Shown here: positions 30,537-48,279 of the stretch, in pieces | Layout of the letters: each line of letters starts with the position of its first letter | Position numbering within the stretch: position 1 is the stretch's first letter | From: an uncultured Candidatus Actinomarina sp. | GTDB lineage: Bacteria > Actinomycetota > Acidimicrobiia > Actinomarinales > Actinomarinaceae | Direction of reading: 5' to 3' | Length of the DNA stretch: 64,000 bases | Assembly: GCA_902613615.1 (NCBI GenBank) | Contig: CACMHQ010000003.1 | Span: 128,115 to 192,114 of the forward strand | Notes under the pieces: generated by a model | Told to the model about the DNA's origin: nothing | Seen by the model: the letters and a program-made list of their open reading frames with translations, nothing else | Databases searched by the model: none | Made by a program: the position numbers and the translations under genes

Positions 30537-30795
30537 TGATGATTTTGTTCTTACATAATCAAACAGAAAAACATTACTTGTTAATAAAAAGAAAAATGCA
30601 AGTAAATTTTTAGTAGTATTATTATTTTCGATTGCATCAATTGAAATCTCAAAACCTTTAGAATTATTAATTTCTTACCTACATTCATTTAACAAACTAA
30701 GAATTATTAATCACAATATTAAATGAATTGAAAAATAATATATTAACTTTCATATATGCAAATACAAAATTGTTTATCATTGGGTAAGAACATAT

Positions 30796-32643: not shown

Positions 32644-32776
32644 CTTCCTAAAAAAAACCAAAAAAAAGGAAAAATTTCATCGCAAAGAATATAAATTATT
32701 GATCATTAATGCAACCATTTAAAATTGATAAGTTATTTGATGTTTTTATCATAGTCTTGAAGTTTGGCAGAAATAA

Positions 32777-34102: not shown

Positions 34103-34418
34103 TAAATTTATTTAATCTCTATTACTTACATTTACAAAATAGAGACTTGAAAATAGAAAAAACATGAACATCAAAATGTTGATATAAGGTGTATTTTGTA
34201 TTCGTAAAACTTTGACAGGTTCAAATCCATCATTTAATAAATTGTTGAAAGATTTAATATCTATTGAATATACAACGAGACTGTTTTTTCAAAATTAATT
34301 TTTGAGTTACTTAAGTCATATTAAGTATTTTAATAATTTTTTTTCTCTCTTCTTAAGGTTAAGGTAAAGAACTTTTATATATAATTTAAATATTCAAATA
34401 TTAAATTAGTATTGTCAT

Positions 34419-36056: not shown

Positions 36057-36162
36057 AATTATATTTCCTAATATTTAATATTTAATCTTGATTTTCTACA
36101 TTCAATTGTTTTCCTGTAATTATCATCTCACCAAGTAGTATTATCTGTACGCTAATTAATTA

Positions 36163-37537: not shown

Positions 37538-37585
37538 GTGGGCGCTACAGGATTTGAACCTGTGACTTCTTCCTTGTAAGGGAAG
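37538..37585 (-). repeat. att remnant 3: a 48-bp copy of the 3' half of tRNA-Val (anticodon stem to discriminator)
   Basis: GTGGGCGCTACAGGATTTGAACCTGTGACTTCTTCCTTGTAAGGGAAG is identical to 46711-46758. It is flanked by TCCTGAAAAACCCTTG on the left and AACGATTA on the right, and these flanks are shared with the other remnants but not with the tRNA. Confidence 0.9.
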
Positions 37586-37597
37586 AACGATTATATT

Positions 37598-39034
37598 TTA
37601 TTTGTCTTTTGATTGATTTAATTTGTAGGGATTAGGTGATGGTGGACACCCTGGAGGACATTTAGGCTGAACGGTTCTTGTTTGACCAGGAATAATTACA
37701 GATGTTCCAGCATCAACAAACGCAACAGACCATCCCCAGTTTTCTGGATCTTCTATAACTAGTTGCGTATTTGAATTAACACCAAAACCTTCATAATATT
37801 GATACATATATCCCATACCTTTTCGTTTATTGATAAAGCCTGCCTCTCGTTTGTCTCCATTATTCTCTGTAAAAATAAATTTTAAATTAACAGGAGACCC
37901 ATTGGTTACAACTACAAAGTCAACTTTTGAGTTATCAGAGAAAGGTAAATCAAGTGTTGTATTGCCATGTCCATGTTGGTTAAATATATAATTATCTGTT
38001 TGAAACCCAAGGTCTGTGGATAGTATTTCTTGTTTTGGATCCAGGCTAGCGTCTCTTTCGTCACCATAAAAGACTACATCCAGATACTCTCCTCCAAATG
38101 GATGTTCTTCTGGTCCGATATACCAACCCATCGAACTTGGAAGTCCTCTTCCCCTCGCCCAGTCGTTACCATAACTTGTACTCTCCCAACCTTCTTTTGG
38201 ATTTCTGTATAAATTTGAGAACTGTTCAACGATTTCTTCAGTAAAAATTGCTGGTGCCATTTCTTGTTCTTTACTTGTACCTCTTTTCTCCATAAGGGCA
38301 AATGCAATATGACTTGAGCCCTGCATGGTTCCAACCATCTCTTCTAGTGTTGGAACGTACATATATCCCAAAATGTCACCTTTTTTAACAACTTGACCAT
38401 TTTCTACTAGAATATAATCTCTAAAGAAGTTTTCATCTTCTTTAATAACATATCCTTCCATCTGATACAGAAAGCTCACAACATTACCATTGTTTTGTGC
38501 AAATTTTAATTTCAGTAAGTAAGCAGAATGCCACCAGGGAGGGTCTGAGTCTGAATGGTCCACAACGTTATAATATGACCCATTTCCTTGTGCCAGCTCA
38601 ATAATTCCATCTGCTACTGCGTATAGTGGTGGAAAATCCGATGGTTTTGTTGCCTCTCTCCATCTTGGATCTGTATTTGAAAAATAAACTTGCGCATCAT
38701 TATGTGGCCTTGGTGAGCGTTTACCTACATAAGGATGTCCTGCAATAATGTCTTCGAAATCAACAAAAAATCTATCACTTTTATTAGTTATAAACTCTTT
38801 TATGTCTGGGAGTGTTTGTATTGTCAATCCGCTGCTTTGACTCTGGTTCCCAGATTCTTGACTAGATGAGGAGTTAGATTGTTCATTAGAATCGGTCTCC
38901 TTGGATTCTTGAGAACTTTTTTCACTTACCTCTTCTTGTGATAATTCCTGATCTTGCTGAGACTGTGTAGAAGTAGATTCCGGTAAGCCTCCACAAAAAG
39001 AAATTAATAGAAAAAGAATTATAACTTTCTTCAT
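37598..39034 (-). CDS. Secreted lipoprotein with a Ser/Gln/Glu-rich linker, function unknown
   Basis: Signal plus lipobox-like MKKVIILFLLISFCGG, then about 60 aa of low-complexity S/Q/E linker, a globular domain, and a C-terminal CPPGCPPSP. A weak M23-like block (GDILGYMYVP...SSHIAFAL) lacks the catalytic His/Asp set. Confidence 0.6.
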   Translation of the reverse strand: MKKVIILFLLISFCGGLPESTSTQSQQDQELSQEEVSEKSSQESKETDSNEQSNSSSSQESGNQSQSSGLTIQTLPDIKEFITNKSDRFFVDFEDIIAGHPYVGKRSPRPHNDAQVYFSNTDPRWREATKPSDFPPLYAVADGIIELAQGNGSYYNVVDHSDSDPPWWHSAYLLKLKFAQNNGNVVSFLYQMEGYVIKEDENFFRDYILVENGQVVKKGDILGYMYVPTLEEMVGTMQGSSHIAFALMEKRGTSKEQEMAPAIFTEEIVEQFSNLYRNPKEGWESTSYGNDWARGRGLPSSMGWYIGPEEHPFGGEYLDVVFYGDERDASLDPKQEILSTDLGFQTDNYIFNQHGHGNTTLDLPFSDNSKVDFVVVTNGSPVNLKFIFTENNGDKREAGFINKRKGMGYMYQYYEGFGVNSNTQLVIEDPENWGWSVAFVDAGTSVIIPGQTRTVQPKCPPGCPPSPNPYKLNQSKDK

Positions 39035-39098
39035 ATAATTTTATTTTATTGAAAATGTAATTGAATTGCAGGGGTCAAGTGAGTAATTTACCCAGCAA

Positions 39099-39878
39099 TT
39101 AATTATTTTTACAATACTCGCTACTGCTGCCATCATTCCCAGAGGGTGGTAAATTTCTAACTATTTCTTCGTCATTAGGAGTTAACCAATCAAACCAACA
39201 AACTGCATGTTTGGCAATTTCATATCCAAACGATTTTACTAATTCTGAAGTTTTGCTTGCCTCATTTTCTTTTCTATAGTCATATATACCAAAATCTACG
39301 AATACATTATTTAGTATTCCAACTTCGGTAGCTATCACTTCACCTTTTAAAAACTCTACATTTTCTAGATTTGTTGTTCTTGTTTCCCCTTCTTTTGGAG
39401 CGGGAAGATTATCTGCAATTTCTTGTAATTTTGGAGATAATACTAGTAAGTGGTCAAGCCTAAATTTCACATTACAAGCTGTATTAAATTCAAACATATA
39501 CTGAACTTGTCCTTCAACAACATATCTACTACCAAGTACTAAAAAACTATCAATTGGGATCTTCACTGTAATCTTGTTGTTGTTATCACCTAAGCCATCA
39601 AATCTAAATCCACCGTGTGGTTTAAAATAATTAGCTCTGATTTGTCCTGGATATAAAATTGAAGTAACCAAATTTAGATCAACAGGAGTATCAAACAATA
39701 ACTTTTCGGGGCAATCATTATTTATTGACTGTGTATCAGTCGTAGATATAGTTGTCGTATCTTCGTCTCTTGTGGTTGTTGAAGTTGTAGATGTAGCTGT
39801 CGTTATTAACGGTTCAATTGTTTGATCGGACCCACCACAAAATGAAAAAAACATAATTACAACAGCTATTTTTTTCAT
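39099..39878 (-). CDS. Secreted lipoprotein with a Thr/Ser-rich linker, function unknown
   Basis: MKKIAVVIMFFSFCGG carries the same SFCGG lipobox context as its neighbour. It is followed by a T/S-rich linker and then a globular domain. Confidence 0.6.
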   Translation of the reverse strand: MKKIAVVIMFFSFCGGSDQTIEPLITTATSTTSTTTRDEDTTTISTTDTQSINNDCPEKLLFDTPVDLNLVTSILYPGQIRANYFKPHGGFRFDGLGDNNNKITVKIPIDSFLVLGSRYVVEGQVQYMFEFNTACNVKFRLDHLLVLSPKLQEIADNLPAPKEGETRTTNLENVEFLKGEVIATEVGILNNVFVDFGIYDYRKENEASKTSELVKSFGYEIAKHAVCWFDWLTPNDEEIVRNLPPSGNDGSSSEYCKNN

Positions 39879-39898
39879 AGTGTCATTTTATTAAAAAT

Positions 39899-39917
39899 GT
39901 TCGGTTTTTGTTCGGTT
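39899..39917 (+). repeat. GTTCGGTTTTTGTTCGGTT motif (lipoprotein island, att-proximal arm)
   Basis: A variant of the GTGCGG repeat, ending 38 bp before att remnant 2. Confidence 0.45.
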
Positions 39918-39955
39918 GAGCTACATATATATGTAAAGATTTCTGAAAAACCGTT

Positions 39956-40003
39956 GTGGGCGCTACAGGATTTGAACCTGTGACTTCTTCCTTGTAAGGA
40001 AAG
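39956..40003 (-). repeat. att remnant 2: a 48-bp copy of the tRNA-Val 3' half (1 mismatch)
   Basis: Same 48-mer as 46711-46758 with G>A at 40001. Flanks are TTCTGAAAAACCGTTG (left) and AACCATTA (right). Confidence 0.9.
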
Positions 40004-40118
40004 AACCATTAAATACTAGGTAGTATCACAAAGTATCAATTTATAAAGTCAATGAACTTAACCTCTTTTAAAAAGATATCAGAAGTTATCAGACAGTATC
40101 TACAGTTATAGAAAAAAT

Positions 40119-40139
40119 GTGCGGTTTTTGTGCGGTTTT
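40119..40139 (+). repeat. GTGCGGTTTTTGTGCGGTTTT motif (mini-island, att-distal arm)
   Basis: An exact 21-mer is also present at 40683-40703, and a variant GTTCGGTTTTTGTTCGGTT at 39899-39917. It has the same 11-bp internal periodicity and the same distance from the att core (~116 bp) as the GTGGGGG motif of the 6-kb element (~119 bp). Confidence 0.5.
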
Positions 40140-40149
40140 ATGTTGTTCT

Positions 40150-40653
40150 TTAGTATTTAAAAATTTTCTCAAAATTATTATGTATCCATAGCCTATACGA
40201 AGATCCCACATCCATAATTTGATCAGATAACGATTCTTTTAAAATTTTATCTAAAAAAAACACGGGTAGGAAAATATAAAAAAACCAAAATGGTATTCCC
40301 ATCATAAAGTAAATCATTGATACAGTTTTAGAAAAACTTCCAATTAACACAAGTACTAATATCCAAAAAAAATAAAAAAAGTACCCATTCCAATCATATT
40401 CTCGCTCCAGTTTCCAATCTCTGTAGAGCTCATATAGAGGAACAAGAATTGTAATTGGTAACAGTAAACTAAGTCTATCTAACCTACTCTCGTTTGGGTC
40501 CATTTCATATAAAGTATCTCTAGAGATAATTTCTTGAAGTTCTGCTTCAAGTTTTTTTTCTTTGTCAGTTAAGGGGGTTTGTTCCTTTTTTTGCTGAAGT
40601 TTGTAAATATTGCGAACAGCTTTATCGTGCTGGTGTTTATTGATCTTTTTCAT
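40150..40653 (-). CDS. Membrane protein with a charged N-terminal coiled region; sole ORF of the mini-island
   Basis: 167 aa. The N-terminus is K/E-rich (KLQQKKEQTPLTDKEKKLEAELQE), followed by 3 hydrophobic helices. No motif recognised. Confidence 0.5.
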   Translation of the reverse strand: MKKINKHQHDKAVRNIYKLQQKKEQTPLTDKEKKLEAELQEIISRDTLYEMDPNESRLDRLSLLLPITILVPLYELYRDWKLEREYDWNGYFFYFFWILVLVLIGSFSKTVSMIYFMMGIPFWFFYIFLPVFFLDKILKESLSDQIMDVGSSYRLWIHNNFEKIFKY

Positions 40654-40682
40654 ATCAAAATTTTACAAAAATTAACATAGAT

Positions 40683-40703
40683 GTGCGGTTTTTGTGCGGT
40701 TTT
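40683..40703 (+). repeat. GTGCGGTTTTTGTGCGGTTTT motif (mini-island, att-proximal arm)
   Basis: Second exact copy, ending 36 bp before att remnant 1. Confidence 0.5.
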
Positions 40704-40739
40704 TTGTATTTTAGTAGGGTAGATTTCTGAAAAACCCTT

Positions 40740-40787
40740 GTGGGCGCTACAGGATTTGAACCTGTGACTTCTTCCTTGTAAGGTAAG
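40740..40787 (-). repeat. att remnant 1 (distal att site of the 6-kb element): a 48-bp copy of the tRNA-Val 3' half (1 mismatch)
   Basis: Same 48-mer with G>T at 40784. Flanks are TTCTGAAAAACCCTTG (left) and AACCATTA (right). Confidence 0.9.
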
Positions 40788-40794
40788 AACCATT

Positions 40795-41075
40795 ATATAT
40801 GGGGGTATATGGTTACCTCTGAAAACTTGTACTCCACTTGTGGAAACCCTATCTGAAAACCTACGAATACCAATGACAACCCCCCATTATTATGAAGTTG
40901 CAGGAGTGGGGGAAAAGTGGGGGTGCAATATCTATGACCCTCAGGTGTCAATGTCGGGGGGTGCTATATATATTATGTAAGGCGCTCGGAAATTACTGGT
41001 AAATCTGTACTACCTATTGCATATGTCAATTTAGTGGGGGCGTATATGTATATGTAACCCCTCAGTAAATGTGCG
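40795..41075. repeat. G-tract/TATAT iteron-like array in the ORF-free arm of the element
   Basis: Five G5-6 (or C6) tracts lie within about 250 bp: 40801-40805, 40880-40885 (C-run), 40906-40923, 40956-40961 and 41034-40. Most are followed by TATAT-type sequence. CCCTCAG and TCTGAAAAC are also repeated here. Confidence 0.5.
40906..40923 (+). repeat. Putative arm-type integrase site GTGGGGGAAAAGTGGGGG (distal arm)
   Basis: An exact 18-mer is also present at 46635-46652 in the same orientation. It has an internal 11-bp direct repeat of GTGGGGG. Confidence 0.55.
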
Positions 41076-41728
41076 GAACATTATTCTTAAGTTAGAAAAG
41101 AAAGGTGGTGTTTAATGGCGTGTCCAGAATGCGGATGTGAAGATTAAAGTAGGGCGCATTAATAATCGCTAACTGTTGAATTAGTACGATAGGGTTAAGG
41201 TACTAATGAGACGCGAAATGACCTTTGTCATTTCATCTTACACACTAAATAGCTAGGTAAAACAAGCTAAACATCCATTACAACTGACAGATTAGATTTT
41301 AAATTCGTCTCAAAAGTCGTTTAAGCAAGTCGTTTTTAATACTGAACACAGGACAAATACAGTAGTGGACAAATGACAATTCAGTAAGTTTTGTATGCGG
41401 TAACCTACGACTAACTCTGAAATATCGTATCAGATTGCCCTCCGCTAGTGGAACATAAATCACTACATCAAATGACAAGATAGGGGCATATCAAATCAGA
41501 ACATTAAAAAACTTCTACAAATTTGGGCAGAAAAAAAATCAGTAAAGGTATTTGGGGTGGAAAGCCTATAAACACTAGAAAAAACCACCCGCCCTACGCT
41601 TTTTTACCTAAGTTTCAGCAAGTTATAGAACAATATATGCAATTATTCTTCTTCTTCTGCAACATACTTAAGTTGTTTGGAAACAAGCTCAAGAACTTCC
41701 AATGGTTCTTTGGGATAATTGTTATTCA

Positions 41729-41914
41729 TTATTCTTCTTCCCTAAGAGTATTGGCTTTTACTTTACTGATGTCAGATACGACCTTGATTAAAGACTGATT
41801 AAGTTCTTCATCTTGATAAGGTTTATTATCTTCATTCACTTGTTGCTGAGCATTTAAGACAGTCTCAAACATCTTCGTGAATACAGTATTAATTCGTTCT
41901 TTTCGTTCACTCAT
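41729..41914 (-). CDS. Small acidic hypothetical protein (61 aa)
   Basis: The ATG at 41914 overlaps the stop of the upstream gene by 8 nt (ATGAGTGA), which suggests translational coupling. The ORF track's longer version (to 42034) would overlap 128 nt of the upstream CDS. Confidence 0.35.
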   Translation of the reverse strand: MSERKERINTVFTKMFETVLNAQQQVNEDNKPYQDEELNQSLIKVVSDISKVKANTLREEE

Positions 41915-42497
41915 ATGGGTAATCCTTTCCCAATTCTTTCTTACATATCTCAACTTTTTGTTCGTGGGAATAAGCGTCAAGGTCAATGTCTTTTCCTTTC
42001 GCATACTCTTGGTCAAACCAAACTTCAATAGCAAAGAATTGATTGCTTTTAATATCTTCTTCTGTTTGTTTTTCAGGCAAGAACCTAGTCTCTAGGTCAA
42101 GTTCCATATCATCAATCATATGGTCAGGGACAATCTCAGGCTTACTTGAATTGAGTTGAAAGTTATGAGGGTCATATCTTTCTAACATCCACTTAGCTGA
42201 AGATACATTCCTGTTATTGATTGCGTCATCATTGATTATCTCTATGAGTTGACCTTTGTACTTACTCATTGCTCTGTTTGTTTGATAGTAGAAATTAATA
42301 AACACCTGCTCTTCATCTTCCATTCCAAGCAATGTCCAACGCCTAAATGTTTTAGGACTAATTCCAACACGCATACAAGCGTCAGGTAATGGAGCTCCCT
42401 GTTCCAAGAACTCGCAAAGCTTATCCAAATCTACTTCATTAATCTTTGATGGACGCCCTATTGCTAGGGCTCCATCTTGTCTTTTATCTTTTTTCAA
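41907..42497 (-). CDS. Small-terminase-like / HTH DNA-binding protein
   Basis: The N-terminus GRPSKINEVDLDKLCEFLEQGAPLPDACMRVGISPKTFRRW and the later block SSAKWMLERYDPHNF follow the pattern seen in phage small terminase subunits (GRP.K...G.s...a....gis..T...W ... a.W.LER..P..f). Confidence 0.45.
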   Translation of the reverse strand: MKKDKRQDGALAIGRPSKINEVDLDKLCEFLEQGAPLPDACMRVGISPKTFRRWTLLGMEDEEQVFINFYYQTNRAMSKYKGQLIEIINDDAINNRNVSSAKWMLERYDPHNFQLNSSKPEIVPDHMIDDMELDLETRFLPEKQTEEDIKSNQFFAIEVWFDQEYAKGKDIDLDAYSHEQKVEICKKELGKDYPYE

Positions 42498-43678
42498 AAT
42501 AGTTCCACCTCTTCTTGTTTATATTCAGGCGGTTCTTCTTCAGGTAGGTACTTAGCAAATGCGTCCAACATATCGTTGAAGTCATAGCCTCGTTTATTAT
42601 CAGTACCAATTCGCATTTGTTTTGGATATATTTCATATCTCTTTAATCCATTAGCTACTTGGTTCTGATTAATACCATTACCTTTGTTCCAATTAACGAA
42701 ACGATTTTCCAAGAAGTCATTGACCTTAACTGCAAGGTCGTTAGAAAAGATTTTGTCTGTTGTTTGTTCACGCATAATTGTTCTGCACAACATTAACAAT
42801 TCAATCTGCCAACTTTGGTCATTGTCTATATAGTTCTTAGAAGTTATTTCATTAATGGCGTTCAATGTATCAAGAGCCCAATCTAAATTACCCATAGTTG
42901 CAATGGTTAAAAGCGGTGCGCCAATATCTATTGCTCTAGAGTTTGTGTTGGTAACCCTAAGTATTCTGATACATTTTACATAGTCCTCTATTGTCCAAAA
43001 TGGATTGTTCTCTTCATCAACTTCATCTTTAAATTGATTGAGTTGTAAGGTAACTCCATATTCAAACTGTTCTGATATTTCAGGTAGGTCTAAATTAAAC
43101 ATCTCTATTTCTTGAACTGTTGCTCTTTGTAACCCAATAGGAAAACTTCTTTTTCTTAAAGCGTCACTAATGGCGTCTTGTCCAATACCACAAATAACTT
43201 TGGGGCAGTAAACATTAAACCACTTGGGAGTAAATGACGCTCCAACAAGCTTTGGAACTTTAGCTCCACGCTTACTGAAACCTACATTTAAAACACCCAT
43301 AAGCTCAGGTCTATTTTCAACATCTAATTTATCAATCTCATCAAACATCATTGTTCCCTCATTGCTATCAATAATTCTGTAGATAGCATTGGTAGGCATA
43401 GTCATATCCAATGGATTGAATACAAGTTCTTTAAGGACATCTAACAAAGTAGATTTTCCACATTCAGGCTCAGGGCTATAGATGTGGATGTACCCACTAA
43501 AGTTGAACTGCTTATAAAAGTATGTGGACACCACATAATTGGCTAACAATATAGCCTCGTTGTCACTCTGAAAGCAGATGAAAGTTTTAAGTAGTCTGAC
43601 AACAGTATCAAAAATATTTTGAAACTCCGCATTATCTTTGACTACACTTTCCAAAGCGTCTTCGTATGTAGTGTCCAT
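42494..43678 (-). CDS. P-loop NTPase, putative replication (primase-associated / SF3-helicase-like) protein
   Basis: Walker A-like PEPECGKSTLL and Walker B MMFDEIDKL, followed by LMGVLNVGFSKRG. The start at 43678 (MDTTYEDA) gives a TAATG junction with the upstream ORF; the ORF track starts at 43705. Confidence 0.5.
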   Translation of the reverse strand: MDTTYEDALESVVKDNAEFQNIFDTVVRLLKTFICFQSDNEAILLANYVVSTYFYKQFNFSGYIHIYSPEPECGKSTLLDVLKELVFNPLDMTMPTNAIYRIIDSNEGTMMFDEIDKLDVENRPELMGVLNVGFSKRGAKVPKLVGASFTPKWFNVYCPKVICGIGQDAISDALRKRSFPIGLQRATVQEIEMFNLDLPEISEQFEYGVTLQLNQFKDEVDEENNPFWTIEDYVKCIRILRVTNTNSRAIDIGAPLLTIATMGNLDWALDTLNAINEITSKNYIDNDQSWQIELLMLCRTIMREQTTDKIFSNDLAVKVNDFLENRFVNWNKGNGINQNQVANGLKRYEIYPKQMRIGTDNKRGYDFNDMLDAFAKYLPEEEPPEYKQEEVELF

Positions 43679-43872
43679 TATCCATACCTCGCATAATCTC
43701 GCCATTCCATACGACCTGTAACTGATATAACTTTTTTACGATTACATTCACAAGAACTAGTGCAGTAGTGAAGTTCACAGGTGCATAGTTCCCAAGCGTT
43801 ACAAGTGTTACAGTAAACATAAGTTCCCTCTGTATGTCGTGGCGGTATGTTATACTTCAATTGGAACCTCAT
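43678..43872 (-). CDS. Small Cys-rich (zinc-finger-like) protein
   Basis: YCNTCNAWELCTCELHYCTSSCEC has 8 Cys in 24 residues. It is translationally coupled to the P-loop gene. The start is uncertain (43872 or 43911). Confidence 0.35.
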   Translation of the reverse strand: MRFQLKYNIPPRHTEGTYVYCNTCNAWELCTCELHYCTSSCECNRKKVISVTGRMEWRDYARYG

Positions 43873-44161
43873 TATCAGGGGTTTTTCTAGGAAAATTACT
43901 AACCATACCAAAGGTCTTTCCTAGTTGATGTTCTTCTAACCAAACTTTGAACCAACATTCAAATGTTTTTACTCTTCCAAATAACTTAAAGAATGTCGGT
44001 AAGTTCCCTGCAGTCCTCTTTTCTCTGAGCGTACTTTCAGGAACATTCCACTTATCTGACACCTGCTTTAGTGTCAAACAAGCACAATCACGAACTATAT
44101 GTTTACAGTTCTGATGATGTTGAAGATAATCGTTATTCATCTTCCTCTTGGTAGTTCTCAA
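43850..44161 (-). CDS. Excisionase/AlpA-like (MerR-type HTH) DNA-binding protein
   Basis: LTLKQVSDKWNVPESTLREKRTAGNLPTFFKLFGRVKTF fits the HTH_17/excisionase pattern (lt..e.a..l.vs..Tl.....G.lP....g+...f). Confidence 0.5.
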   Translation of the reverse strand: MRTTKRKMNNDYLQHHQNCKHIVRDCACLTLKQVSDKWNVPESTLREKRTAGNLPTFFKLFGRVKTFECWFKVWLEEHQLGKTFGMVSNFPRKTPDNEVPIEV

Positions 44162-44420
44162 AGAAATCTTTCCACTCAGTTAACCCCAAATAAATATTGT
44201 GAAGAGTTGATTTATTCGGATGTTGAGCGCCTCTGAATATCCTTGAGATAGTAGCCTCGCCAAGTCCTATAGAGTAACCAAGTCTTGATTGAGTTAAGCC
44301 AAAGTTCTCTTTAAGATACTCAAACTCTTCAACCAAATCTGCAATGGTTAGCTCGGGTAGAACCCACATCATAGGCATATAGTTTTCAGATAACTGAACT
44401 TCTCTTGTCTTAAGAGCCAT
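44133..44420 (-). CDS. XRE-family HTH transcriptional regulator (cI/Cro-like)
   Basis: GLTQSRLGYSIGLGEATISRIFRG is a canonical HTH_3 motif. It is the first gene of the leftward operon and faces a divergent intergenic region. Confidence 0.65.
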   Translation of the reverse strand: MALKTREVQLSENYMPMMWVLPELTIADLVEEFEYLKENFGLTQSRLGYSIGLGEATISRIFRGAQHPNKSTLHNIYLGLTEWKDFFENYQEEDE

Positions 44421-44464
44421 TCTTACCTAGCTTTCTGACTGCTATTGCTAATAAATAGATGGTT

Positions 44465-44535
44465 TTGTCTTATCAGCAGTCTTTTACTAAGACAACCACT
44501 ATATGTAGTATATCACATCAAATCGTATTGTCTTG
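44465..44535. promoter_or_regulatory. Putative operator set in the divergent control region of the element
   Basis: Inverted repeat TTGTCTTA (44465-72) / TAAGACAA (44488-95), plus a third half-site TTGTCTTG (44528-35). All lie between the divergently transcribed XRE gene and the 262-aa ORF. Confidence 0.4.
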
Positions 44536-44581
44536 CTGAAAACACTTGATTACGACAAAAGATGTGTTAATCTATGATTAG

Positions 44582-45370
44582 ATGAAAGTTAATAAAATTG
44601 TTACCAATACTGATGGGCAATGTACTGTTGCTGAAGTCATCTTTGAACCTAGAGATAAAATAGGAAATGAAACTGTTGATGACTTTCTTCAATACTCTGT
44701 AACTCTTGAGCTCAACCAAGCCACAAAGATTGTAAGTTACAAAGCTCATTCAAGTGGTGTTGTTGCTAGTGGTATTAACTACATTCCAAAAGATGTAACA
44801 AAATTTAGTCCTACCCAACTCTTTAATGCAGGGTGGTCTTACATTATGAAAGCTAAAGGGTTTGAAAGTTGGCAACCTCAAATGATTGAAGAACTTGAAA
44901 CCTACATCAAAGAGGCAACCAAGAACAAGAAATCATTTTCAATGAAAGGCGATACGAACAAAGCTATCTTCGTTGCAACCTACCTTTATTATTTAAATGC
45001 CATACCTACTGCTATTGAAAGTAGGCACGAAGAAATGTGCAACAAACTCAATATGTCTAGTGGTCAGTTGTCTAAAAATCTAAGTAGAGTTTCTGTTCCT
45101 ATTGAAGATATGCAGAAATTTTCTAAGAAGAACAAAGTCAATGTATTCACTTCCCTTGACAAGATGACTGTTACTGACAAAGATGTTTACTTAATGAAAC
45201 ATTCTGACAGAAATATTTTAGGTGGTTACATAACTCAGTACGCACAACAGTTAGTTGAAAAACAATTGTCACATAAATATCAAGAAATTGGAATGGATTA
45301 CACAGTTGCTTTAGACCCTAACTACCTTATGGCAGTTGTTGGGGATAGTAGGAAAGTAGATAAGAAGTGA
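44582..45370 (+). CDS. Hypothetical protein (262 aa), co-transcribed with the integrase
   Basis: A long ORF whose composition matches the rest of the element. Its stop overlaps the integrase GTG start. No motif recognised. Confidence 0.5.
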   Translation: MKVNKIVTNTDGQCTVAEVIFEPRDKIGNETVDDFLQYSVTLELNQATKIVSYKAHSSGVVASGINYIPKDVTKFSPTQLFNAGWSYIMKAKGFESWQPQMIEELETYIKEATKNKKSFSMKGDTNKAIFVATYLYYLNAIPTAIESRHEEMCNKLNMSSGQLSKNLSRVSVPIEDMQKFSKKNKVNVFTSLDKMTVTDKDVYLMKHSDRNILGGYITQYAQQLVEKQLSHKYQEIGMDYTVALDPNYLMAVVGDSRKVDKK

Positions 45371-46467
45371 AACCTATCAAGTGCTCTTCCTCAAAGTGTT
45401 CTAAGAAATGTAAGTATGTAGTTCGCTACAAAGATAGAGCAGGAAAGGTTAAAGAAAAACATTTCCATAGCTACAAGTTAGCTAATCAGTTTGTTACTGA
45501 AGAGACTATCAGACAGGAAACAGGATTACTTTCTTCTGAACAGTCACAGAAAATGACCTTGAATGAATTTATTACTACAGTTCCTTTGACTAAAGGTAAT
45601 GAAACAACTCAAGCAGTTACACAACAGTTATACGACAAACATATCAAAGATACATTAGGTAGTTACAAGCTCAGAGATATATCAAGATTAGATTGTCAAA
45701 AGTTTATGGATGAAGACCTTGCGGGTTACTCGCCAACAAGTAAGCAAAAGATTAAAAGAATTCTTGATACTGCTTTTAAATATGCGTCTAGTGATGGCTT
45801 TATTGTTAGGAACCCTGCTGAAAATGTAATCATTGAGGGCGAAATGAGGGAAAGGGAACCTCAACCATTAACTCCAACACAACTAACTGAATTTATTTCT
45901 TTATGGGATGAAGATGAATACTTATCTGAATATTCAAATGTCGTAGTTGCTTTGGCTTACACAGGTATGCGACCACAAGAAATGGGAGCTTTGACTTGGG
46001 ATGATGTTGACTTAACTGAACGAACCTTAGATTTAAATAAAGTAATTAAGAAAGACCCTAAGGGTAGTCAGTTTGATAGTCCATTAATGAAATCTAAATC
46101 TGCAAGTAGGGTGTTAGCTATTGATGATGAACTACTAGCTAGGTTACGCTTTAGAAAATCAACGAACCCTAATGACAAGTATGTATTCTCTAGTTCTCTT
46201 GGACATCAAATAAATCTAAATAACTTTAGAGGAAGATACTTCAAGAAAGCAGTACTGTTGACTGACTTACCTATTGAAAGACCATACGATTTACGCCATA
46301 CATTTAGCGCATTGATGTGGTCTAGAAATGTACCTTTAGGAAAATTATCAAGAATGATGGGTCACAGTAGTGTCAATGTCACTCAACAATGGTATGGCAA
46401 TTGGTATCGTGAGGCAGACTTTTCAGGTATTGAAACACTAGAACAATGGAAAGAACAACAAGCCTAA
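45367..46467 (+). CDS. int: Tyrosine recombinase (phage-type integrase) with an N-terminal arm-binding (AP2-like) domain
   Basis: The C-terminal catalytic region YDLRHTFSALMW...MGHSSVNVTQQWYGNWY carries the R..H-x-x-R..H..Y pattern. The N-terminus YVVRYKDRAGKVKEKHFHSYKLANQF resembles an arm-type DNA-binding domain. GTG start. The gene lies 240 bp from the tRNA. Confidence 0.85.
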   Translation: MKPIKCSSSKCSKKCKYVVRYKDRAGKVKEKHFHSYKLANQFVTEETIRQETGLLSSEQSQKMTLNEFITTVPLTKGNETTQAVTQQLYDKHIKDTLGSYKLRDISRLDCQKFMDEDLAGYSPTSKQKIKRILDTAFKYASSDGFIVRNPAENVIIEGEMREREPQPLTPTQLTEFISLWDEDEYLSEYSNVVVALAYTGMRPQEMGALTWDDVDLTERTLDLNKVIKKDPKGSQFDSPLMKSKSASRVLAIDDELLARLRFRKSTNPNDKYVFSSSLGHQINLNNFRGRYFKKAVLLTDLPIERPYDLRHTFSALMWSRNVPLGKLSRMMGHSSVNVTQQWYGNWYREADFSGIETLEQWKEQQA

Positions 46468-46634
46468 CTTTTACCTAACCTTTGTCTGACCTCTTACGAA
46501 TAATTAATGTTTAGTTTGTAACACTTGTTTAACCCTGTGTAGATATGCACCTACAAAAATGTCTTTATAGCGATATACAGTTAAGACTTTTGTCTTCGTA
46601 AATGACAACATTAAGACATAATTCTTTCAAAAAA

Positions 46635-46652
46635 GTGGGGGAAAAGTGGGGG
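46635..46652 (+). repeat. Putative arm-type integrase site GTGGGGGAAAAGTGGGGG (tRNA-proximal arm)
   Basis: An exact copy of 40906-40923, located 58 bp from the att core in the tRNA. Confidence 0.55.
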
Positions 46653-46708
46653 AAACGACAAATTTATTATTATATGACAAGAACATTCGGTTAAAAGCCT
46701 ACAAACAT

Positions 46709-46785
46709 TGGTGGGCGCTACAGGATTTGAACCTGTGACTTCTTCCTTGTAAGGGAAGCGCTCTGCCGGACTGAGCTAAGCGCCC
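46709..46785 (-). tRNA. tRNA-Val (anticodon UAC), CCA encoded
   Basis: The minus-strand sequence GGGCGCTTAGCTCAGTCCGGCAGAGCGCTTCCCTTACAAGGAAGAAGTCACAGGTTCAAATCCTGTAGCGCCCACCA folds by hand into a full cloverleaf: 7-bp acceptor, GCTC/GAGC D stem, CTTCC/GGAAG anticodon stem with loop CTTACAA, and ACAGG/CCTGT T stem with TTCAAAT loop. Confidence 0.93.
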
Positions 46786-46885: not shown

Positions 46886-47566
46886 ATGACATCACTAACA
46901 GTTATTGTTCCAGTATTTAACGAAGAACAAACAGTGCAGGAATCTTTATCAAGATTAGATTCTGTTGATATAGTCTCAAAAATATTAATTGTTGACGACT
47001 GCTCAACAGATAATTCAAATAGATTAATTCAGGAGTTTATTCAAGATAAGAAAAAATATTTATTATTAAAAACTCTTAATAACTCTGGTAAAGGTAAAGC
47101 AATAGAAACAGCACAAAAGTATATAGAAACAGACTACCTTGCAATTCATGACGCAGACCTAGAGTATTTTCCAGAAGACTTTTATAGTATGTATGAAAAA
47201 ATAGATAATAATAATTTAGTTCTTGGTTCAAGATTTATTGGGAGCTTAACAAGAAACAACCTTTATAGTCGTACTCTATTTGCAAATTATTTCTTGTCTA
47301 AATTATTCTCTTTAATTTATAGAAACAAAGTTACTGATGTTGCCTCCTGTTATAAAATGATGCCAAAAGATTTTTTTAAAAAAATTAAAATTGAAAGTTC
47401 TGGGTTTGAGTTTGAAATTGAAGTATTAGCAAAATATTTAAACGATAATACTAAAATTACAGAGGTACCTATTCATTACAATGGAAGATCCTATGCGGAG
47501 GGAAAGAAGATAAAACCTATCGATGGTCTCAAATATATATATTGGATGTTGAAGTGTAAAGAATGA
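46886..47566 (+). CDS. GT2 polyprenol-phosphate glycosyltransferase (DPM1-like)
   Basis: LTVIVPVFNEEQTVQESL...ILIVDDCSTDNS, HDADLEY (DXD) and TDVASCYKM blocks. Confidence 0.7.
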   Translation: MTSLTVIVPVFNEEQTVQESLSRLDSVDIVSKILIVDDCSTDNSNRLIQEFIQDKKKYLLLKTLNNSGKGKAIETAQKYIETDYLAIHDADLEYFPEDFYSMYEKIDNNNLVLGSRFIGSLTRNNLYSRTLFANYFLSKLFSLIYRNKVTDVASCYKMMPKDFFKKIKIESSGFEFEIEVLAKYLNDNTKITEVPIHYNGRSYAEGKKIKPIDGLKYIYWMLKCKE

Positions 47567-48279
47567 AAAATTTAGTAGTTATTCCAACATACAACGAAGC
47601 AGATAATATTTTATTACTTCTTTCTGAAGTTCTTTTATTAGATGTAGATGTCCTGGTTGTAGATGACAATTCTCCAGATGGCACACAAAAATTAATTTTG
47701 GAACATGATTTATTTGGTAAAAGGATCTTTATTTTACAAAGAGAAACTAAATTGGGGCTAGGTTCTGCATATAGAGAAGGTTTTCAATGGGGAATAGAAA
47801 ATAAATACCATAATATGATTCAAATGGATGCAGATTTTTCTCATCAAGTATCTGATTTAAAAAAATTAATTGATGAAAAAAAAGATAGTGATGTTGTTAT
47901 TGGAAGTAGATATATAAAAAGTGGAAAGATTGACGGTTGGAGCAATAATCGTTATCTCTTATCTCTTTTTGCAAATAAATATTCTAGATTTTTAACGTTT
48001 AGTAAAATTCATGATATGACAAGTGGATTTAGAATATATACATTGAATGCACTAAATCAAATTGATTTCAAGTCAACAAAAAGCAATGGTTATGCCTTTC
48101 AAATTGAAATGACAGTTTTATCTCTAATTGCAAAATTAAATATTGTTGAAATTCCAATAACTTTTAATGAGAGAAGAGAAGGCAGTTCTAAGATGAGTTT
48201 GGGTATTGTTGTTGAAGCTTTTCCTAAAGTTATTTTATTGTGTATTAAGAGGATTGTTAGTTTCTTAACTACAACCTAA
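47563..48279 (+). CDS. Polyprenol/dolichol-phosphate mannosyltransferase-like GT2 (Ppm1/DPM1 type)
   Basis: LVVIPTYNEADNILLL...VLVVDDNSPDGT, QMDADFSH, VVIGSRY, DMTSGFR, and the typical NGYAFQIEM block. Confidence 0.8.
   Translation: MKNLVVIPTYNEADNILLLLSEVLLLDVDVLVVDDNSPDGTQKLILEHDLFGKRIFILQRETKLGLGSAYREGFQWGIENKYHNMIQMDADFSHQVSDLKKLIDEKKDSDVVIGSRYIKSGKIDGWSNNRYLLSLFANKYSRFLTFSKIHDMTSGFRIYTLNALNQIDFKSTKSNGYAFQIEMTVLSLIAKLNIVEIPITFNERREGSSKMSLGIVVEAFPKVILLCIKRIVSFLTTT

What the first reader, a model, noticed from the sequence alone, without database searches (positions are those of the whole stretch)
40740..46758. 6-kb integrase/regulator/replication/small-terminase-like element without structural genes: candidate phage satellite
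Seen in sequence:
- The segment between att cores is visibly less AT-rich than its surroundings.
- A rightward unit encodes a 262-aa unknown protein plus a tyrosine integrase next to the tRNA.
- A divergent leftward operon encodes, in order, an XRE HTH, an excisionase-like HTH, a Cys-rich mini-protein, a P-loop Walker A/B protein, an HTH protein with a small-terminase-like pattern, and a 61-aa acidic protein. Most of these are translationally coupled.
- A ~0.9-kb ORF-free, repeat-rich arm follows.
- There are no capsid, portal, large terminase, tail or lysis genes.

Established knowledge: PICI-type satellites, and the small virion-encapsidated integrative elements and tycheposons of marine bacteria, have this int / regulatory switch / replication / packaging-redirection layout and a similar size.

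Inference: this is a helper-phage-dependent satellite in a group where, as far as I know, no such elements or their helpers have been characterised. It is the strongest candidate for a new system in this window.
Basis: partly seen in the sequence, partly recalled or inferred. Interest (0 to 1): 0.8.

Follow-up and report, generated by a model that had tools for sequence, protein, structure and literature searches.

The report
Small phage-satellite-like element in Actinomarina
A 6-kb mobile element sits in a tRNA-Val gene of the tiny marine bacterium Candidatus Actinomarina; it can integrate, copy itself and probably ride in another phage's capsid, and it is a candidate builder of the tRNA-linked gene cassettes in a group reported to lack mobile elements.

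Summary
A 5.97-kb segment (40740-46754) is bounded by a perfect 44-bp repeat of the 3' half of tRNA-Val(TAC). It encodes a tyrosine integrase, a 262-aa unknown protein, XRE and excisionase-like HTH proteins, a Cys-rich peptide, a DUF3631 P-loop protein, a small-terminase (TerS) homologue and two tiny ORFs. It has no structural or lysis genes. The host is Candidatus Actinomarina.

The locus is a tandem array: one autonomous element plus two integrase-less cassettes.

Relatives in marine metagenomes keep the same gene order. All seven testable genes are under purifying selection. Relatives assemble as roughly 5.9-6.3-kb circles or head-to-tail repeats with attP junctions, including in <0.2-um Delaware Bay viromes.

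Tandem 11-bp-spaced arm motifs sit at fixed distances from the core. The same pattern marks integrase-less cassettes across Actinomarina genomes.

Best reading (about 0.6): a helper-dependent, concatemer-packaged satellite, resembling VEIMEs, PICI-like tycheposons and PICMIs. No helper phage is identified and capsid packaging is not shown. This is a new member of a known kind.

The parts
46709..46785 (-). tRNA-Val(TAC). Its 3' half (46711-46754) is the attR core.
   Evidence: ARAGORN. Rfam tRNA 73.8 bits. Perfect 44-nt repeat with 40740-40783.
46635..46652 (.). Integrase-proximal (P') arm: tandem GTGGGGG x2, 11 nt apart, 58 and 69 nt from the core end. Candidate arm-type integrase-binding sites.
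   Evidence: All 5 GTGGGGG in the window lie in the element's two arms, against 0.74 expected. The positions +58/+69 are the same in L330, L099, L101 and L097.
45367..46467 (+). Tyrosine integrase, 366 aa, with an N-terminal Cys cluster.
   Evidence: PF00589 5e-19 and PF14659 5e-8. phrog_1 1.5e-50. Family alignment keeps R202, R310-H311, H333 and Y343.
44582..45370 (+). 262-aa protein of unknown function; its stop overlaps the integrase start by 4 nt. Possible HTH around residues 145-170. It sits where SaPI stl and PICMI iolg sit.
   Evidence: No Pfam, PHROG, NCBIfam or PADLOC family. AlphaFold2 pLDDT 66.9, with no meaningful fold match. Conserved in the family, dN/dS 0.27.
44421..44581 (.). 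Divergent regulatory region holding two inverted-repeat candidate operators: TTGTCTTA-N15-TAAGACAA at 44465-44495 and an imperfect second copy, TTGTCTTG-N15-TACGACAA, at 44528-44558.
   Evidence: 4 of the 13 TTGTCTTR sites in the window fall within 131 bp here. A palindrome pair is seen at the same place in L097, L013, L100, L014 and L008.
44133..44420 (-). XRE-type HTH regulator, 95 aa; first gene of the leftward operon.
   Evidence: HTH_3 1.4e-4, HTH_31 2.5e-4. phrog_8 3e-4. dN/dS 0.09.
43850..44161 (-). Excisionase/AlpA-like HTH protein (103 aa as the longest ORF; 96 aa as called in relatives).
   Evidence: HTH_17 0.018 and phrog_66 'excisionase and transcriptional regulator' 0.004, both weak. 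Conserved position in all family loci.
43678..43872 (-). Cys-rich small protein (about 64 aa from M14). Its stop abuts the start of the 394-aa form of the next gene.
   Evidence: The Cys pattern is conserved in L097, L099, L330, L103, L115 and L119. The rival 62-aa frame has a stop in L099 and L330.
42494..43705 (-). P-loop NTPase with a C-terminal DUF3631 domain (403 or 394 aa). Candidate replication initiator or helicase; it has no primase domain of its own.
   Evidence: PF12307 2.5e-17. Invariant Walker A G83-K84 and Walker B D122-E123. Distant homologues are fused to Toprim or primase domains, and one is named 'putative DNA primase/helicase'.
41907..42497 (-). Small terminase subunit (TerS) homologue, 196 aa. 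Its start overlaps the stop of the DUF3631 gene.
   Evidence: phrog_4102 6e-17. 71 of 71 relatives hit phrog_4102. PDB sequence hits are only Sf6 gp1. AlphaFold2 pLDDT 85.7. Foldseek top hits: Sf6 TerS at prob 0.99 and BFVD putative TerS at 2.4e-4. A distant homologue lies next to TerL.
41729..41914 (-). 61-aa acidic protein, translationally coupled to TerS; function unknown.
   Evidence: ORF. 85% identical in L120, where TerS is only 40% identical.
41643..41729 (-). 28-aa ORF (MNNNYPKEPLEVLELVSKQLKYVAEEEE) that overlaps the stop of the 61-aa gene.
   Evidence: A similar peptide can be read in L099 (sequence).
40784..41642 (.). Non-coding distal (P) arm. It carries GTGGGGG at 40906, 40917 and 41034, which are -181, -170 and -298 from the core end on the reverse strand, plus G5-TATAT repeats. 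Cargo is inserted near 41492 in close relatives.
   Evidence: L008 and L009 carry a 1.2-kb lipoprotein gene inserted at the point equivalent to 41492.
40740..40783 (.). attL core: the displaced copy of the tRNA-Val 3' half.
40000..40739 (.). Island B, an integrase-less mini-element holding a 167-aa membrane protein (40150-40653, minus strand). The same tandem motif TGTGCGGTTTT x2 is present in both arms (40670-40701 and 40106-40137).
   Evidence: Matched motifs at +37 and -183 relative to the flanking cores. The arm type matches the circular L117 element and the first cassette in L337 and L343.
39956..39999 (.). Third copy of the tRNA-Val core.
   Evidence: Rfam partial tRNA 32.4 bits.
37582..39955 (.). 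Island C, an integrase-less cassette with two predicted lipoproteins (259 aa and 478 aa). It has a P'-type tandem motif (39886-39917) and no distal-arm motif.
   Evidence: The same lipoprotein genes sit beside tRNA-Val in other Actinomarina genomes at 88-97% amino-acid identity.
37538..37581 (.). Fourth and outermost copy of the tRNA-Val core.

Best explanation
The segment is an intact, autonomous integrative element of Candidatus Actinomarina that most likely lives as a phage satellite. The proposed life cycle follows; each step is marked as shown or inferred.

1. **Integration (shown).** A tyrosine integrase recombines a 44-bp core shared by the element and the 3' half of tRNA-Val(TAC). The tRNA is rebuilt, and earlier insertions are pushed outward into a tandem array.
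2. **Integrase and excisionase binding (architecture shown, binding inferred).** The integrase, probably with the excisionase-like HTH protein, is inferred to bind tandem heptamers spaced 11 bp apart. These sit at fixed distances on both sides of the core, at +58/+69 and at -170/-181/-298.
3. **Regulatory switch (inferred).** A divergent promoter region with two inverted-repeat candidate operators is read by the XRE protein, the 262-aa protein or both. It keeps the leftward operon silent until a signal arrives, probably helper-phage infection.
4. **Replication (circles and repeats shown in assemblies of relatives; mechanism inferred).** The excised circle is replicated by the DUF3631 P-loop protein together with host or helper priming functions, yielding circles and head-to-tail concatemers of about 6 kb.
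5. **Packaging (inferred).** The element's own TerS directs a helper phage's large terminase to element DNA. Because there are no capsid-resizing genes, several copies would fill one helper capsid by the headful, as in VEIMEs and PICMIs.
6. **Cargo and cassettes (structure shown, origin and trans-mobilisation inferred).** Cargo is carried in the two arms. Integrase-less cassettes that keep both arms are left behind, or are moved in trans by a matching integrase. This would build the tRNA-linked flexible islands of Actinomarina.
For: **Boundaries and target.** tRNA-Val and a perfect 44-bp repeat bound the element. Four core copies occur in the window, against 0 expected.

**Gene content.** Integrase, DUF3631 P-loop protein and TerS are identified, with no structural or lysis genes.

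**TerS assignment.**
- phrog_4102 at 6e-17 for the query, and 71 of 71 relatives hit the same family.
- The only PDB sequence hits are Sf6 gp1.
- The AlphaFold2 model has pLDDT 85.7. Its best fold matches are Sf6 TerS and phage TerS proteins.
- A distant homologue lies directly upstream of a TerL gene.

**Replication protein.** Distant DUF3631 homologues are fused to Toprim or primase domains. Walker A and B motifs are invariant.

**A conserved family.** 29 metagenome loci at 33-98% TerS identity keep the order int-262aa | XRE-Xis-(Cys)-DUF3631-TerS wherever the contig reaches those genes. dN/dS is 0.09-0.42 for the seven genes between the window and L097.

**Recent mobility.**
- Copies 98.9-99.9% identical at the DNA level occur in more than 12 samples.
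- L008 has the element at tRNA-Val with different flanking genes.
- 19 Actinomarina ribonucleotide reductase (RNR) loci and 68 tRNA-Val core loci lack the element.

**Circles and concatemers in relatives.**
- L101 (6013 bp, 18-nt end overlap) is a circular permutation of L013 (5995 bp).
- L117 (127-nt overlap) is a permutation of L115.
- L109 wraps past one unit length.
- L099 joins the TerS arm to the integrase end through an attP.
- L106 and L107 are 12.5 kb with a 123-nt overlap.
- L330 holds two head-to-tail units 99.68% identical with a 5865-bp period.

**Virome origin.** L101, L104, L106, L107 and L115 come from Delaware Bay viromes, prepared from <0.2-um filtrate by FeCl3 flocculation (PMC8546989).

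**Arm-site grammar.** Motif positions are conserved while motif sequences differ between subfamilies.

**Defence cargo in a larger variant.** L106 carries a PDC-S18 protein at 3e-74 and a type III restriction-enzyme-like protein at 5e-20.
Against: - No helper phage was identified.
- No relative of the TerS, DUF3631 protein or integrase above about 30% identity was found in IMG/VR or in GenBank phages.
- The exact attP junction of this window's own element was not found in viral or JGI metagenome contigs. Only an ambiguous contig end in L009 hints at it.
- The virome preparations report no DNase step. Actinomarina cells are extremely small, and vesicles would also be collected, so presence in a virome does not prove encapsidation.
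- Circular and tandem contigs can also arise from episomes, from integrated tandem arrays or from assembler behaviour.
- The TerS fold is an HTH plus helical hairpin, and some distant homologues are not next to a TerL.
- The DUF3631 protein lacks a primase domain, and no origin was located.
Confidence: 0.6

Rival explanations
1. It is an integrative, self-replicating element that does not depend on a phage: an integrative plasmid or cargo-shuttle, like cargo-type tycheposons. It would excise, replicate as a 6-kb circle and spread through vesicles, transformation or generalised transduction. The TerS-like protein would then serve as a DNA-binding replication, partition or regulatory factor rather than in packaging.
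For: - Integration, circular forms and a replication-type P-loop protein are all supported, and none of them needs a phage.
- No helper was found, and the family is absent from IMG/VR as scanned.
- An FeCl3-flocculated <0.2-um fraction also collects vesicles and free DNA.
- The TerS-like protein also gives weak hits to resolvase and transposase HTH families.
- Tycheposons were reported in vesicles as well as in capsids (10.1101/2020.12.28.424599).
Against: - In every family locus long enough to show both genes, the TerS gene is intact and lies directly downstream of the DUF3631 gene. Its dN/dS is 0.14-0.23.
- Its matches are specifically to TerS families, not to generic HTH proteins: 71 of 71 relatives hit phrog_4102.
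- Fold matches are to Sf6 TerS and phage TerS proteins.
- A distant homologue sits in the canonical TerS-TerL arrangement.
- To my knowledge, no role other than packaging has been established for this family.
Confidence: 0.27
2. It is a defective prophage remnant or a plain genomic island that happens to keep an integrase and a few phage-derived genes and is no longer mobile.
For: It has no structural genes, lies beside a tRNA and sits inside a hypervariable island region.
Against: - The compact gene set and a unit size of about 5.9-6.3 kb are conserved across relatives down to 30-45% amino-acid identity.
- All genes are under purifying selection.
- Both arms and the core are intact, with matched motifs.
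- Near-identical copies occur in different genomic backgrounds and in many samples.
- Excised or concatemeric forms of relatives have been assembled.
Confidence: 0.03
3. It is a very small temperate virus in its own right, and one of the unassigned proteins (262 aa, 61 aa or 28 aa) is an unrecognised capsid component.
For: Three to four proteins have no assignable function. Relatives occur in virome fractions.
Against: - A TerS implies a terminase-packaged, tailed-phage-type capsid. That needs TerL, portal and major capsid proteins, none of which can be encoded in the remaining roughly 1 kb of unassigned coding sequence.
- The 262-aa model shows no capsid-like fold.
Confidence: 0.02

Closest known systems
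VEIMEs (virion-encapsidated integrative mobile elements; Eppley et al. 2022, PMC9618062)
   Same: Both are small marine integrative elements with a tyrosine integrase, an excisionase or AlpA-type regulator and a primase- or helicase-type replication gene. Some VEIME modules carry a TerS. VEIMEs are found integrated in oligotrophic bacterioplankton and as concatemers in virus particles. Here, relatives assemble as circles or tandem repeats, including in viromes.
   Different: VEIMEs are defined by direct detection as concatemers in long reads from purified virions, which was not done here. The hosts named in the paper's main text are mainly Pelagibacter, other Alphaproteobacteria, Prochlorococcus and Verrucomicrobia, and Actinomarina is not mentioned there. 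The paper's supplementary tables were not available. Sequence membership could not be tested.
PICI-like tycheposons of Prochlorococcus (Hackl et al., 10.1101/2020.12.28.424599)
   Same: Both use a tyrosine recombinase that targets tRNA genes and leaves partial-tRNA repeats. Both have xis, replication genes and terS, form tandem accumulation that builds genomic islands, leave many degenerate or integrase-less fragments beside tRNAs, and occur in viral fractions.
   Different: The host phylum differs. The replication protein here is a DUF3631 P-loop protein. Tycheposons are described as PICI-sized (10-20 kb), whereas this element is 6 kb. Tycheposons are defined as one gene-sharing group with a distinct integrase clade, and this could not be tested. 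The best integrase matches found in genome and viral collections were no more than 30% identical and were not from cyanobacteria.
PICMIs of Vibrionaceae (Barcia-Cruz et al. 2024, PMC10803314)
   Same: Both are about 6 kb with a minimal gene set, have a gene that overlaps int by 4 nt, lack capsid-remodelling genes and replicate to circular or concatemeric forms. PICMIs are packaged as concatemers.
   Different: PICMIs integrate next to fis rather than in a tRNA. Their core genes are int, alpA and prim. They have no terS.
Classical PICIs / SaPIs
   Same: The topology matches: int plus an adjacent gene transcribed one way, and a divergent operon of regulator, xis, replication gene and terS. Neither encodes structural genes.
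   Different: This element is about half the size or less. It has no recognisable capsid-size redirection or packaging-interference genes. The replication gene lacks a primase domain. Helper induction is untested.
CIMEs (cis-mobilisable elements derived from ICEs in streptococci); comparison from my own knowledge
   Same: Integrase-less units bounded by att sites lie in tandem with an autonomous element. In principle they could be moved by that element's recombinase.
   Different: The parent elements here are satellite-like rather than conjugative. In 15 of 25 units examined, the cassettes keep the same arm motifs at fixed positions in both arms.

Membership tests
Phage satellite (general) | Lacks capsid, portal, tail, large terminase and lysis genes | tested here: met
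   No such matches for any ORF in Pfam, PHROGs, NCBIfam or PADLOC.
Phage satellite (general) | Encodes a function that redirects helper packaging (TerS, capsid-size factor, cos or pac site) | tested here: met
   TerS homologue supported by profile, solved-structure sequence, predicted fold and context of a distant homologue. No pac or cos site was identified.
Phage satellite (general) | Excision, replication and packaging are induced by, and depend on, a helper phage | not testable with these tools
   No helper was found. Testing this needs experiments or particle sequencing.
VEIME | Detected as head-to-tail concatemers inside virus particles | tested here: inconclusive
   Relatives assemble as circles or permuted contigs from <0.2-um FeCl3 viromes (L101, L104, L106, L115). 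One 13-kb scaffold holds two tandem units (L330). These are short-read assemblies with no DNase step reported, and none is this exact element.
VEIME | Encodes an integrase and is found integrated in a cellular genome | tested here: met
   Integrated at tRNA-Val in an Actinomarina chromosome. L103 is integrated at tRNA-Ile.
PICI | int, regulatory switch, pri-rep, terS or another packaging gene, in the characteristic order | tested here: met
   The order int-262aa | XRE-Xis-Cys-DUF3631-TerS is conserved in the family. The replication gene has a P-loop and DUF3631 domain but no primase domain.
PICI | Size of roughly 10-20 kb, about one third of the helper genome | tested here: not met
   Unit length is 5.97 kb here and 5.87-6.33 kb in relatives. 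One variant is 12.4 kb with defence cargo.
Tycheposon | Site-specific recombinase targeting a tRNA, flanked by a full and a partial tRNA, often in tandem arrays | tested here: met
Tycheposon | Belongs to the tycheposon gene-sharing group and integrase clade | not tested
   No tycheposon sequences were available.
PICMI | Integrates next to fis; core genes are int, alpA and prim; no terS | tested here: not met
   The target is a tRNA, terS is present, and there is no primase domain.
Tyrosine recombinase with arm-type sites (lambda-Int-like heterobivalent integrase) | Catalytic R...HxxR...H/W...Y set, plus repeated arm sites flanking the core in attP | tested here: met
   R202, R310-H311, H333 and Y343 are invariant; a Tyr occupies the first His position of the HxxR motif. 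Tandem motifs sit at fixed positions in both arms across the family. Binding itself was not tested.

The most novel reading that the evidence does not exclude
The autonomous integrase-DUF3631-TerS elements and the many integrase-less cassettes at Actinomarina tRNA genes may form a two-tier mobilisation system.

- Each cassette keeps a complete recombination site: the core plus the same tandem arm motif at about +36 to +44 (start of the repeat after the core end) and at about -183.
- A cassette would be excised, inserted, and perhaps co-packaged into helper capsids in trans by a full-length element with the matching integrase.
- This would be an integron-like cassette economy driven by phage satellites.
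- It would be the main mechanism that builds and reshuffles the flexible genomic islands, including the envelope-glycosylation island, of a streamlined marine bacterium reported to have no identifiable mobile elements.
Probability: 0.3. Interest if true: 0.8.

Novelty: new member of a known kind. Interest (0 to 1): 0.6.

Why it matters
**The open question.** Candidatus Actinomarina is among the smallest and most abundant bacteria of the surface ocean.
- One published genome survey reports no identifiable mobile elements. It does describe gene cassettes marked by direct repeats of tRNA fragments (PMC7771536).
- A recent study of 84 complete genomes says that the integration mechanism behind the tRNA-bounded hypervariable region still has to be identified (10.64898/2026.04.03.716425).

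**What this locus supplies.**
- It provides an intact candidate agent: an integrase, its attP grammar, a replication gene and a packaging gene.
- The same arm-site signature marks integrase-less cassettes across the genus.
- This makes the question testable by junction-read mapping, particle sequencing and in-vitro recombination.

**Wider reach.**
- It extends small marine satellites to a new host lineage within Actinomycetota.
- One variant carries anti-phage defence cargo, which fits the idea that satellites shape phage resistance in the ocean.

Tried and rejected
**Searches that found nothing.**
- Single-protein scans for the TerS-like and DUF3631 proteins in IMG/VR found no relative. The same was true for the DUF3631 protein in GTDB species representatives.
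- A TerS alignment found nothing in IMG/VR and only one distant archaeal locus in genomes.
- An integrase-alignment scan of genomes and IMG/VR returned only matches of 30% identity or less.
- An exact 71-nt attP junction pattern for this element gave 0 hits in IMG/VR and in JGI metagenome contigs. The 40-nt tRNA-Val core gave 0 hits in IMG/VR.
- BLAST against GenBank phages found no DNA match. The TerS protein gave three weak hits and the DUF3631 protein gave one.

**Analyses that were uninformative.**
- The structure model of the 262-aa protein is of moderate quality (pLDDT 66.9) and has no meaningful fold match, with TM-scores of 0.19 or less. Its function stays open.
- A DUF3631 profile found no solved relative in the PDB.
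- Promoter and terminator scans found no more sites than in shuffled sequence, and in fact fewer promoter-like sites.
- Supplementary tables of the VEIME paper were not held, so membership and host lists could not be checked.

**Readings considered and rejected.**
- The mycobacterial EPIP satellites: they are 11 kb, use a serine integrase and carry capsid and tape-measure genes.
- P4-like, cf-PICI and PLE membership, rejected on gene content.
- The gene-caller's 62-aa ORF at 43632-43820, rejected because its frame has a stop in relatives.

**An ambiguous lead.** The contig ends of L009 look like an attP junction of this exact element. Only 11 nt follow the core, and the last 3 of them differ from the expected sequence.

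Full report
**1. What is in the window**

tRNA-Val(TAC) lies at 46709-46785 on the minus strand. Its 3' half is repeated as a perfect 44-nt copy: 46711-46754 equals 40740-40783. The two copies bracket 5.97 kb.

A 30-mer from this core occurs four times in the window, at 37540, 39958, 40742 and 46713. It occurs zero times in 100 shuffles. The locus is therefore a tandem array of three units, not a single island:
- Unit B, 40000-40739, holds one 167-aa membrane protein.
- Unit C, 37582-39955, holds two predicted lipoproteins.

Unit A is 35.9% GC. The window as a whole is 28.8%, and the region to the left is 25.3%.

**2. The host**

The neighbouring class II ribonucleotide reductase (RNR) is 96% identical to those of Candidatus Actinomarina single-cell genomes. 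The 42-nt core occurs almost only in Actinomarina assemblies.

**3. Genes of unit A**

| Gene | Coordinates | Evidence |
|---|---|---|
| Integrase | 45367-46467 (+) | PF00589 5e-19; phrog_1 1.5e-50 |
| 262-aa protein | 44582-45370 (+) | Stop overlaps the integrase start by 4 nt. No family match. AlphaFold2 pLDDT 66.9 with no meaningful fold match |
| XRE | 44133-44420 (-) | Weak HTH_3 match |
| Excisionase-like HTH | 43850-44161 (-) | Weak HTH_17 and phrog_66 matches |
| Cys-rich peptide | 43678-43872 (-) | Cysteines conserved across the family. The gene-callers' rival frame has a stop in relatives |
| P-loop / DUF3631 protein | 42494-43705 (-) | PF12307 2.5e-17. Walker A and B invariant. Distant homologues fused to Toprim or primase domains |
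| TerS-like protein | 41907-42497 (-) | See section 4 |
| 61-aa acidic ORF | 41729-41914 (-) | No family match |

Several gene junctions in the leftward operon overlap by a few bases. Nothing matches capsid, portal, large terminase, tail or lysis families.

**4. Is the 196-aa protein a small terminase?**

Several lines of evidence agree.
- It matches phrog_4102 'terminase small subunit' at 6e-17 and Pfam Sf6_terminase at 8e-4.
- An exhaustive search found 484 relatives at E of 0.001 or better. They are mostly 130-200 aa and match over residues 13-115. All 71 that I aligned hit phrog_4102.
- The only sequence hits among solved structures are Sf6 gp1 TerS, aligned across the whole DNA-binding and oligomerisation region.
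- An AlphaFold2 model (pLDDT 85.7) has Sf6 TerS as its top PDB match, at probability 0.99 and E of 0.08. TM-scores are low, as expected for a monomer made of extended helices. It finds phage TerS proteins in BFVD, the best at 2.4e-4.
- A distant homologue in an archaeal provirus-like locus is immediately followed by a large terminase.

One caveat: other distant homologues, in hot-spring contigs, are not next to a terminase.

**5. A conserved, living family**

*Close copies.* The exact DUF3631 protein, or near-identical DNA (98.9-99.9%), occurs in more than a dozen public samples. In L008 the 99.3%-identical element sits at tRNA-Val, but the neighbouring genes differ and the flanks do not align at the DNA level. 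That indicates recent horizontal movement.

*More distant relatives.* A TerS-alignment scan of JGI and Tara contigs returned 29 family loci at 33-98% TerS identity. Every one long enough keeps the order int-262aa | XRE-Xis-(Cys)-DUF3631-TerS. GC is 32-38% throughout.

*Selection.* Between the window and L097, dN/dS is 0.09-0.42 for the seven genes that could be measured.

*Module exchange.* Identity varies sharply by gene. Against L097, the DUF3631 protein is 94% identical and the 262-aa protein 57%. In L120 the 61-aa protein is 85% identical while TerS is 40%.

*Targets.* The family uses at least tRNA-Val and tRNA-Ile(GAT).

**6. Circular or concatemeric forms**

Several relatives assemble in ways that join the two ends of the element.
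- L101 (6013 bp, 18-nt terminal overlap) and L013 (5995 bp) come from independent projects and are circular permutations of each other.
- L117 (127-nt overlap) and L115 are likewise permutations of each other.
- L109 runs past one unit length.
- L099 joins the TerS arm to the integrase end through a core that carries a tRNA-Ile fragment.
- L106 and L107 are 12,520 bp with a 123-nt overlap.
- L330 is a 13-kb scaffold with two head-to-tail units, 99.68% identical with a 5865-bp period, followed by a third, window-like unit.

L101, L104, L106, L107 and L115 carry identifiers of the Delaware Bay viromes. Those were made from <0.2-um filtrate by FeCl3 flocculation (PMC8546989).

*Limits.*
- These are relatives, not this exact element.
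- They are short-read assemblies.
- No DNase step is reported.
- Actinomarina cells are very small, and vesicles would also be collected.
- For the window's own element, the exact attP junction was not found. Only the end of L009 hints at it.

**7. The recombination site has a grammar**

All five GTGGGGG heptamers in the window lie in the two arms of unit A, against 0.74 expected. Read in the tRNA sense, a tandem pair 11 nt apart starts at +58 and +69 after the core end. Further copies lie at -181, -170 and -298.

The same positions hold in L330, L099, L101 and L097. In other subfamilies the integrase-proximal tandem repeat is still present but its sequence is different: CCCCCTGATAT, CCCCCCGATAT or AAAACGCACAT.

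This is the layout of arm-type sites for a heterobivalent integrase. Actual binding is inferred, not shown.

The divergent promoter region holds two TTGTCTT-N15-AAGACAA-type palindromes, the second imperfect in the window. A palindrome pair is seen at the same place in five relatives.

**8. The neighbouring cassettes and the rest of the genus**

Unit B carries the same tandem motif, AACCGCACA read in the tRNA sense, at +37 after its core and at -183 before the next core. It is therefore a miniature element with both arms and no integrase. Unit C keeps only the integrase-proximal arm.

I examined 81 distinct sites that hold the exact core in GTDB species representatives.
- 42 sites have an exact 6-mer repeated in tandem, starting about 34-44 nt downstream. 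In 40 of these the spacing is exactly 11 nt. A control region 300 nt further on shows this in 5 of 76 sites.
- At least about 20 different motif sequences are used.

Of 25 units bounded by two cores, 15 have the same motif in both arms at these fixed positions.

None of the 68 core loci or the 19 RNR loci contains the integrase, the DUF3631 protein or TerS. The lipoprotein genes of unit C recur beside tRNA-Val in other genomes at 88-97% identity.

The tRNA-repeat cassettes described for Actinomarinales (PMC7771536) therefore bear the scars of this element family. Whether they are decay products or are moved in trans remains open.

**9. Cargo**

Close relatives L008 and L009 carry a 394- to 396-aa lipoprotein gene inserted in the distal arm, flanked by a 470-bp duplication. 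The 12.4-kb variant L106 carries a PADLOC PDC-S18 protein at 3e-74 and a type III restriction-enzyme-like helicase-nuclease at 5e-20.

**10. Interpretation**

*Shown:*
- an intact, recently mobile, site-specific integrative element;
- a conserved family under purifying selection;
- attP-joined circular or tandem forms of relatives;
- a genuine TerS homologue as a core gene;
- no structural genes.

*Inferred:*
- helper-phage dependence;
- headful packaging of concatemers;
- the roles of the XRE, 262-aa, Cys-rich and acidic proteins;
- replication by the DUF3631 protein.

I put the satellite reading at about 0.6. A phage-independent integrative replicon stands at about 0.27. A dead remnant or a self-sufficient mini-virus together stand at about 0.05.

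**11. Comparison with known systems**

In how it works, the element is closest to VEIMEs (PMC9618062), PICI-like tycheposons (10.1101/2020.12.28.424599) and PICMIs (PMC10803314).

| System | Points of difference or untested membership |
|---|---|
| PICMI | Different target; this element has a terS; no primase domain |
| Classical PICI | This element is about half the size or less |
| VEIME | Membership needs particle data |
| Tycheposon | Membership needs their sequence sets |

My literature searches found no description of integrase-bearing elements or satellites in Actinomarina. I rate it a new member of a known kind. Its added value is that it gives a concrete mechanism to test for island building in Actinomarina.

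Noticed in passing
window 37538-40739: Two further copies of the tRNA-Val core delimit two integrase-less cassettes to the left of the reported element. One holds a 167-aa membrane protein. The other holds two predicted lipoproteins of 259 and 478 aa.
   Followed up: yes
L331-L398 (tRNA-Val loci of Actinomarina species representatives): About half of 81 core sites are followed by a tandem 6-mer at exactly 11-nt spacing, starting about 34-44 nt downstream. At least 20 different motif sequences are used. 15 of 25 core-bounded cassettes carry the same motif again at about -183 from the next core. None of these loci encodes an integrase of this family.
   Followed up: yes
window 41643-41729 (-): A 28-aa ORF overlaps the stop of the 61-aa gene. 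A similar peptide (ELLELVSKQLKY...EEEE) can be read in L099.
   Followed up: partly
L106 / L107 (Delaware Bay virome contigs, 12,520 bp, 123-nt terminal overlap): A double-sized family member carries defence-type cargo: a PDC-S18 protein (3e-74) between the core and the integrase, and a 902-aa type III restriction-enzyme-like helicase with a TnsA-like nuclease domain in the other arm.
   Followed up: partly
L008 8110-9343 and L009 5274-6513: Copies about 99% identical to the window element carry a 1.2-kb insertion at the point equivalent to window 41492. It encodes a low-complexity lipoprotein and is flanked by a 470-bp direct duplication that includes the 3' end of TerS and a second copy of the 61-aa gene.
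   Followed up: partly
L330 (13,053-bp ENA scaffold): Two head-to-tail units that target tRNA-Ile are 99.68% identical. They are followed by a third unit whose TerS region is 88% identical at the DNA level to the window's tRNA-Val element. This could be a real mixed tandem array or an assembly that walked through variants.
   Followed up: partly
window 45367-45420 (integrase N-terminus) and alignment A3: The integrase starts with a Cys cluster (CSSSKCSKKCKY). C6 and C11 are invariant in the family, which suggests a small metal-binding arm-recognition domain.
   Followed up: no
L120 3102-3284 compared with window 41729-41914: The 61-aa acidic protein is 85% identical in a relative whose TerS is only 40% identical and whose DUF3631 protein is 31% identical. 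It appears to move as its own module or to be under a different constraint.
   Followed up: no
window 43632-43820 (-): Automatic gene calls in related contigs pick a 62-aa ORF in a different frame from the Cys-rich gene. That frame has an internal stop in L099 and L330, so it is probably a miscall.
   Followed up: yes
window 1-37000: A very AT-rich stretch (25% GC) lies left of the array. The five largest ORFs nearest the array (29298-37449) have no Pfam match. Two family-2 glycosyltransferases flank the tRNA at 46886-48279. This fits the envelope-glycosylation flexible island described for Actinomarinales.
   Followed up: no
L335, L375, L380, L390, L397: Contigs carrying the exact Actinomarina tRNA-Val core are binned into Flavobacteriales, Flammeovirgaceae, Bacteroidia and Gammaproteobacteria MAGs. 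They are probably mis-binned Actinomarina island fragments.
   Followed up: no
window 48265-48700 (3' end of the ribonucleotide reductase gene): The class II ribonucleotide reductase has a low-complexity Ser/Pro/Ala/Glu-rich repeat before a C-terminal Cys-rich tail. L008 has a different repeat at the same place.
   Followed up: no
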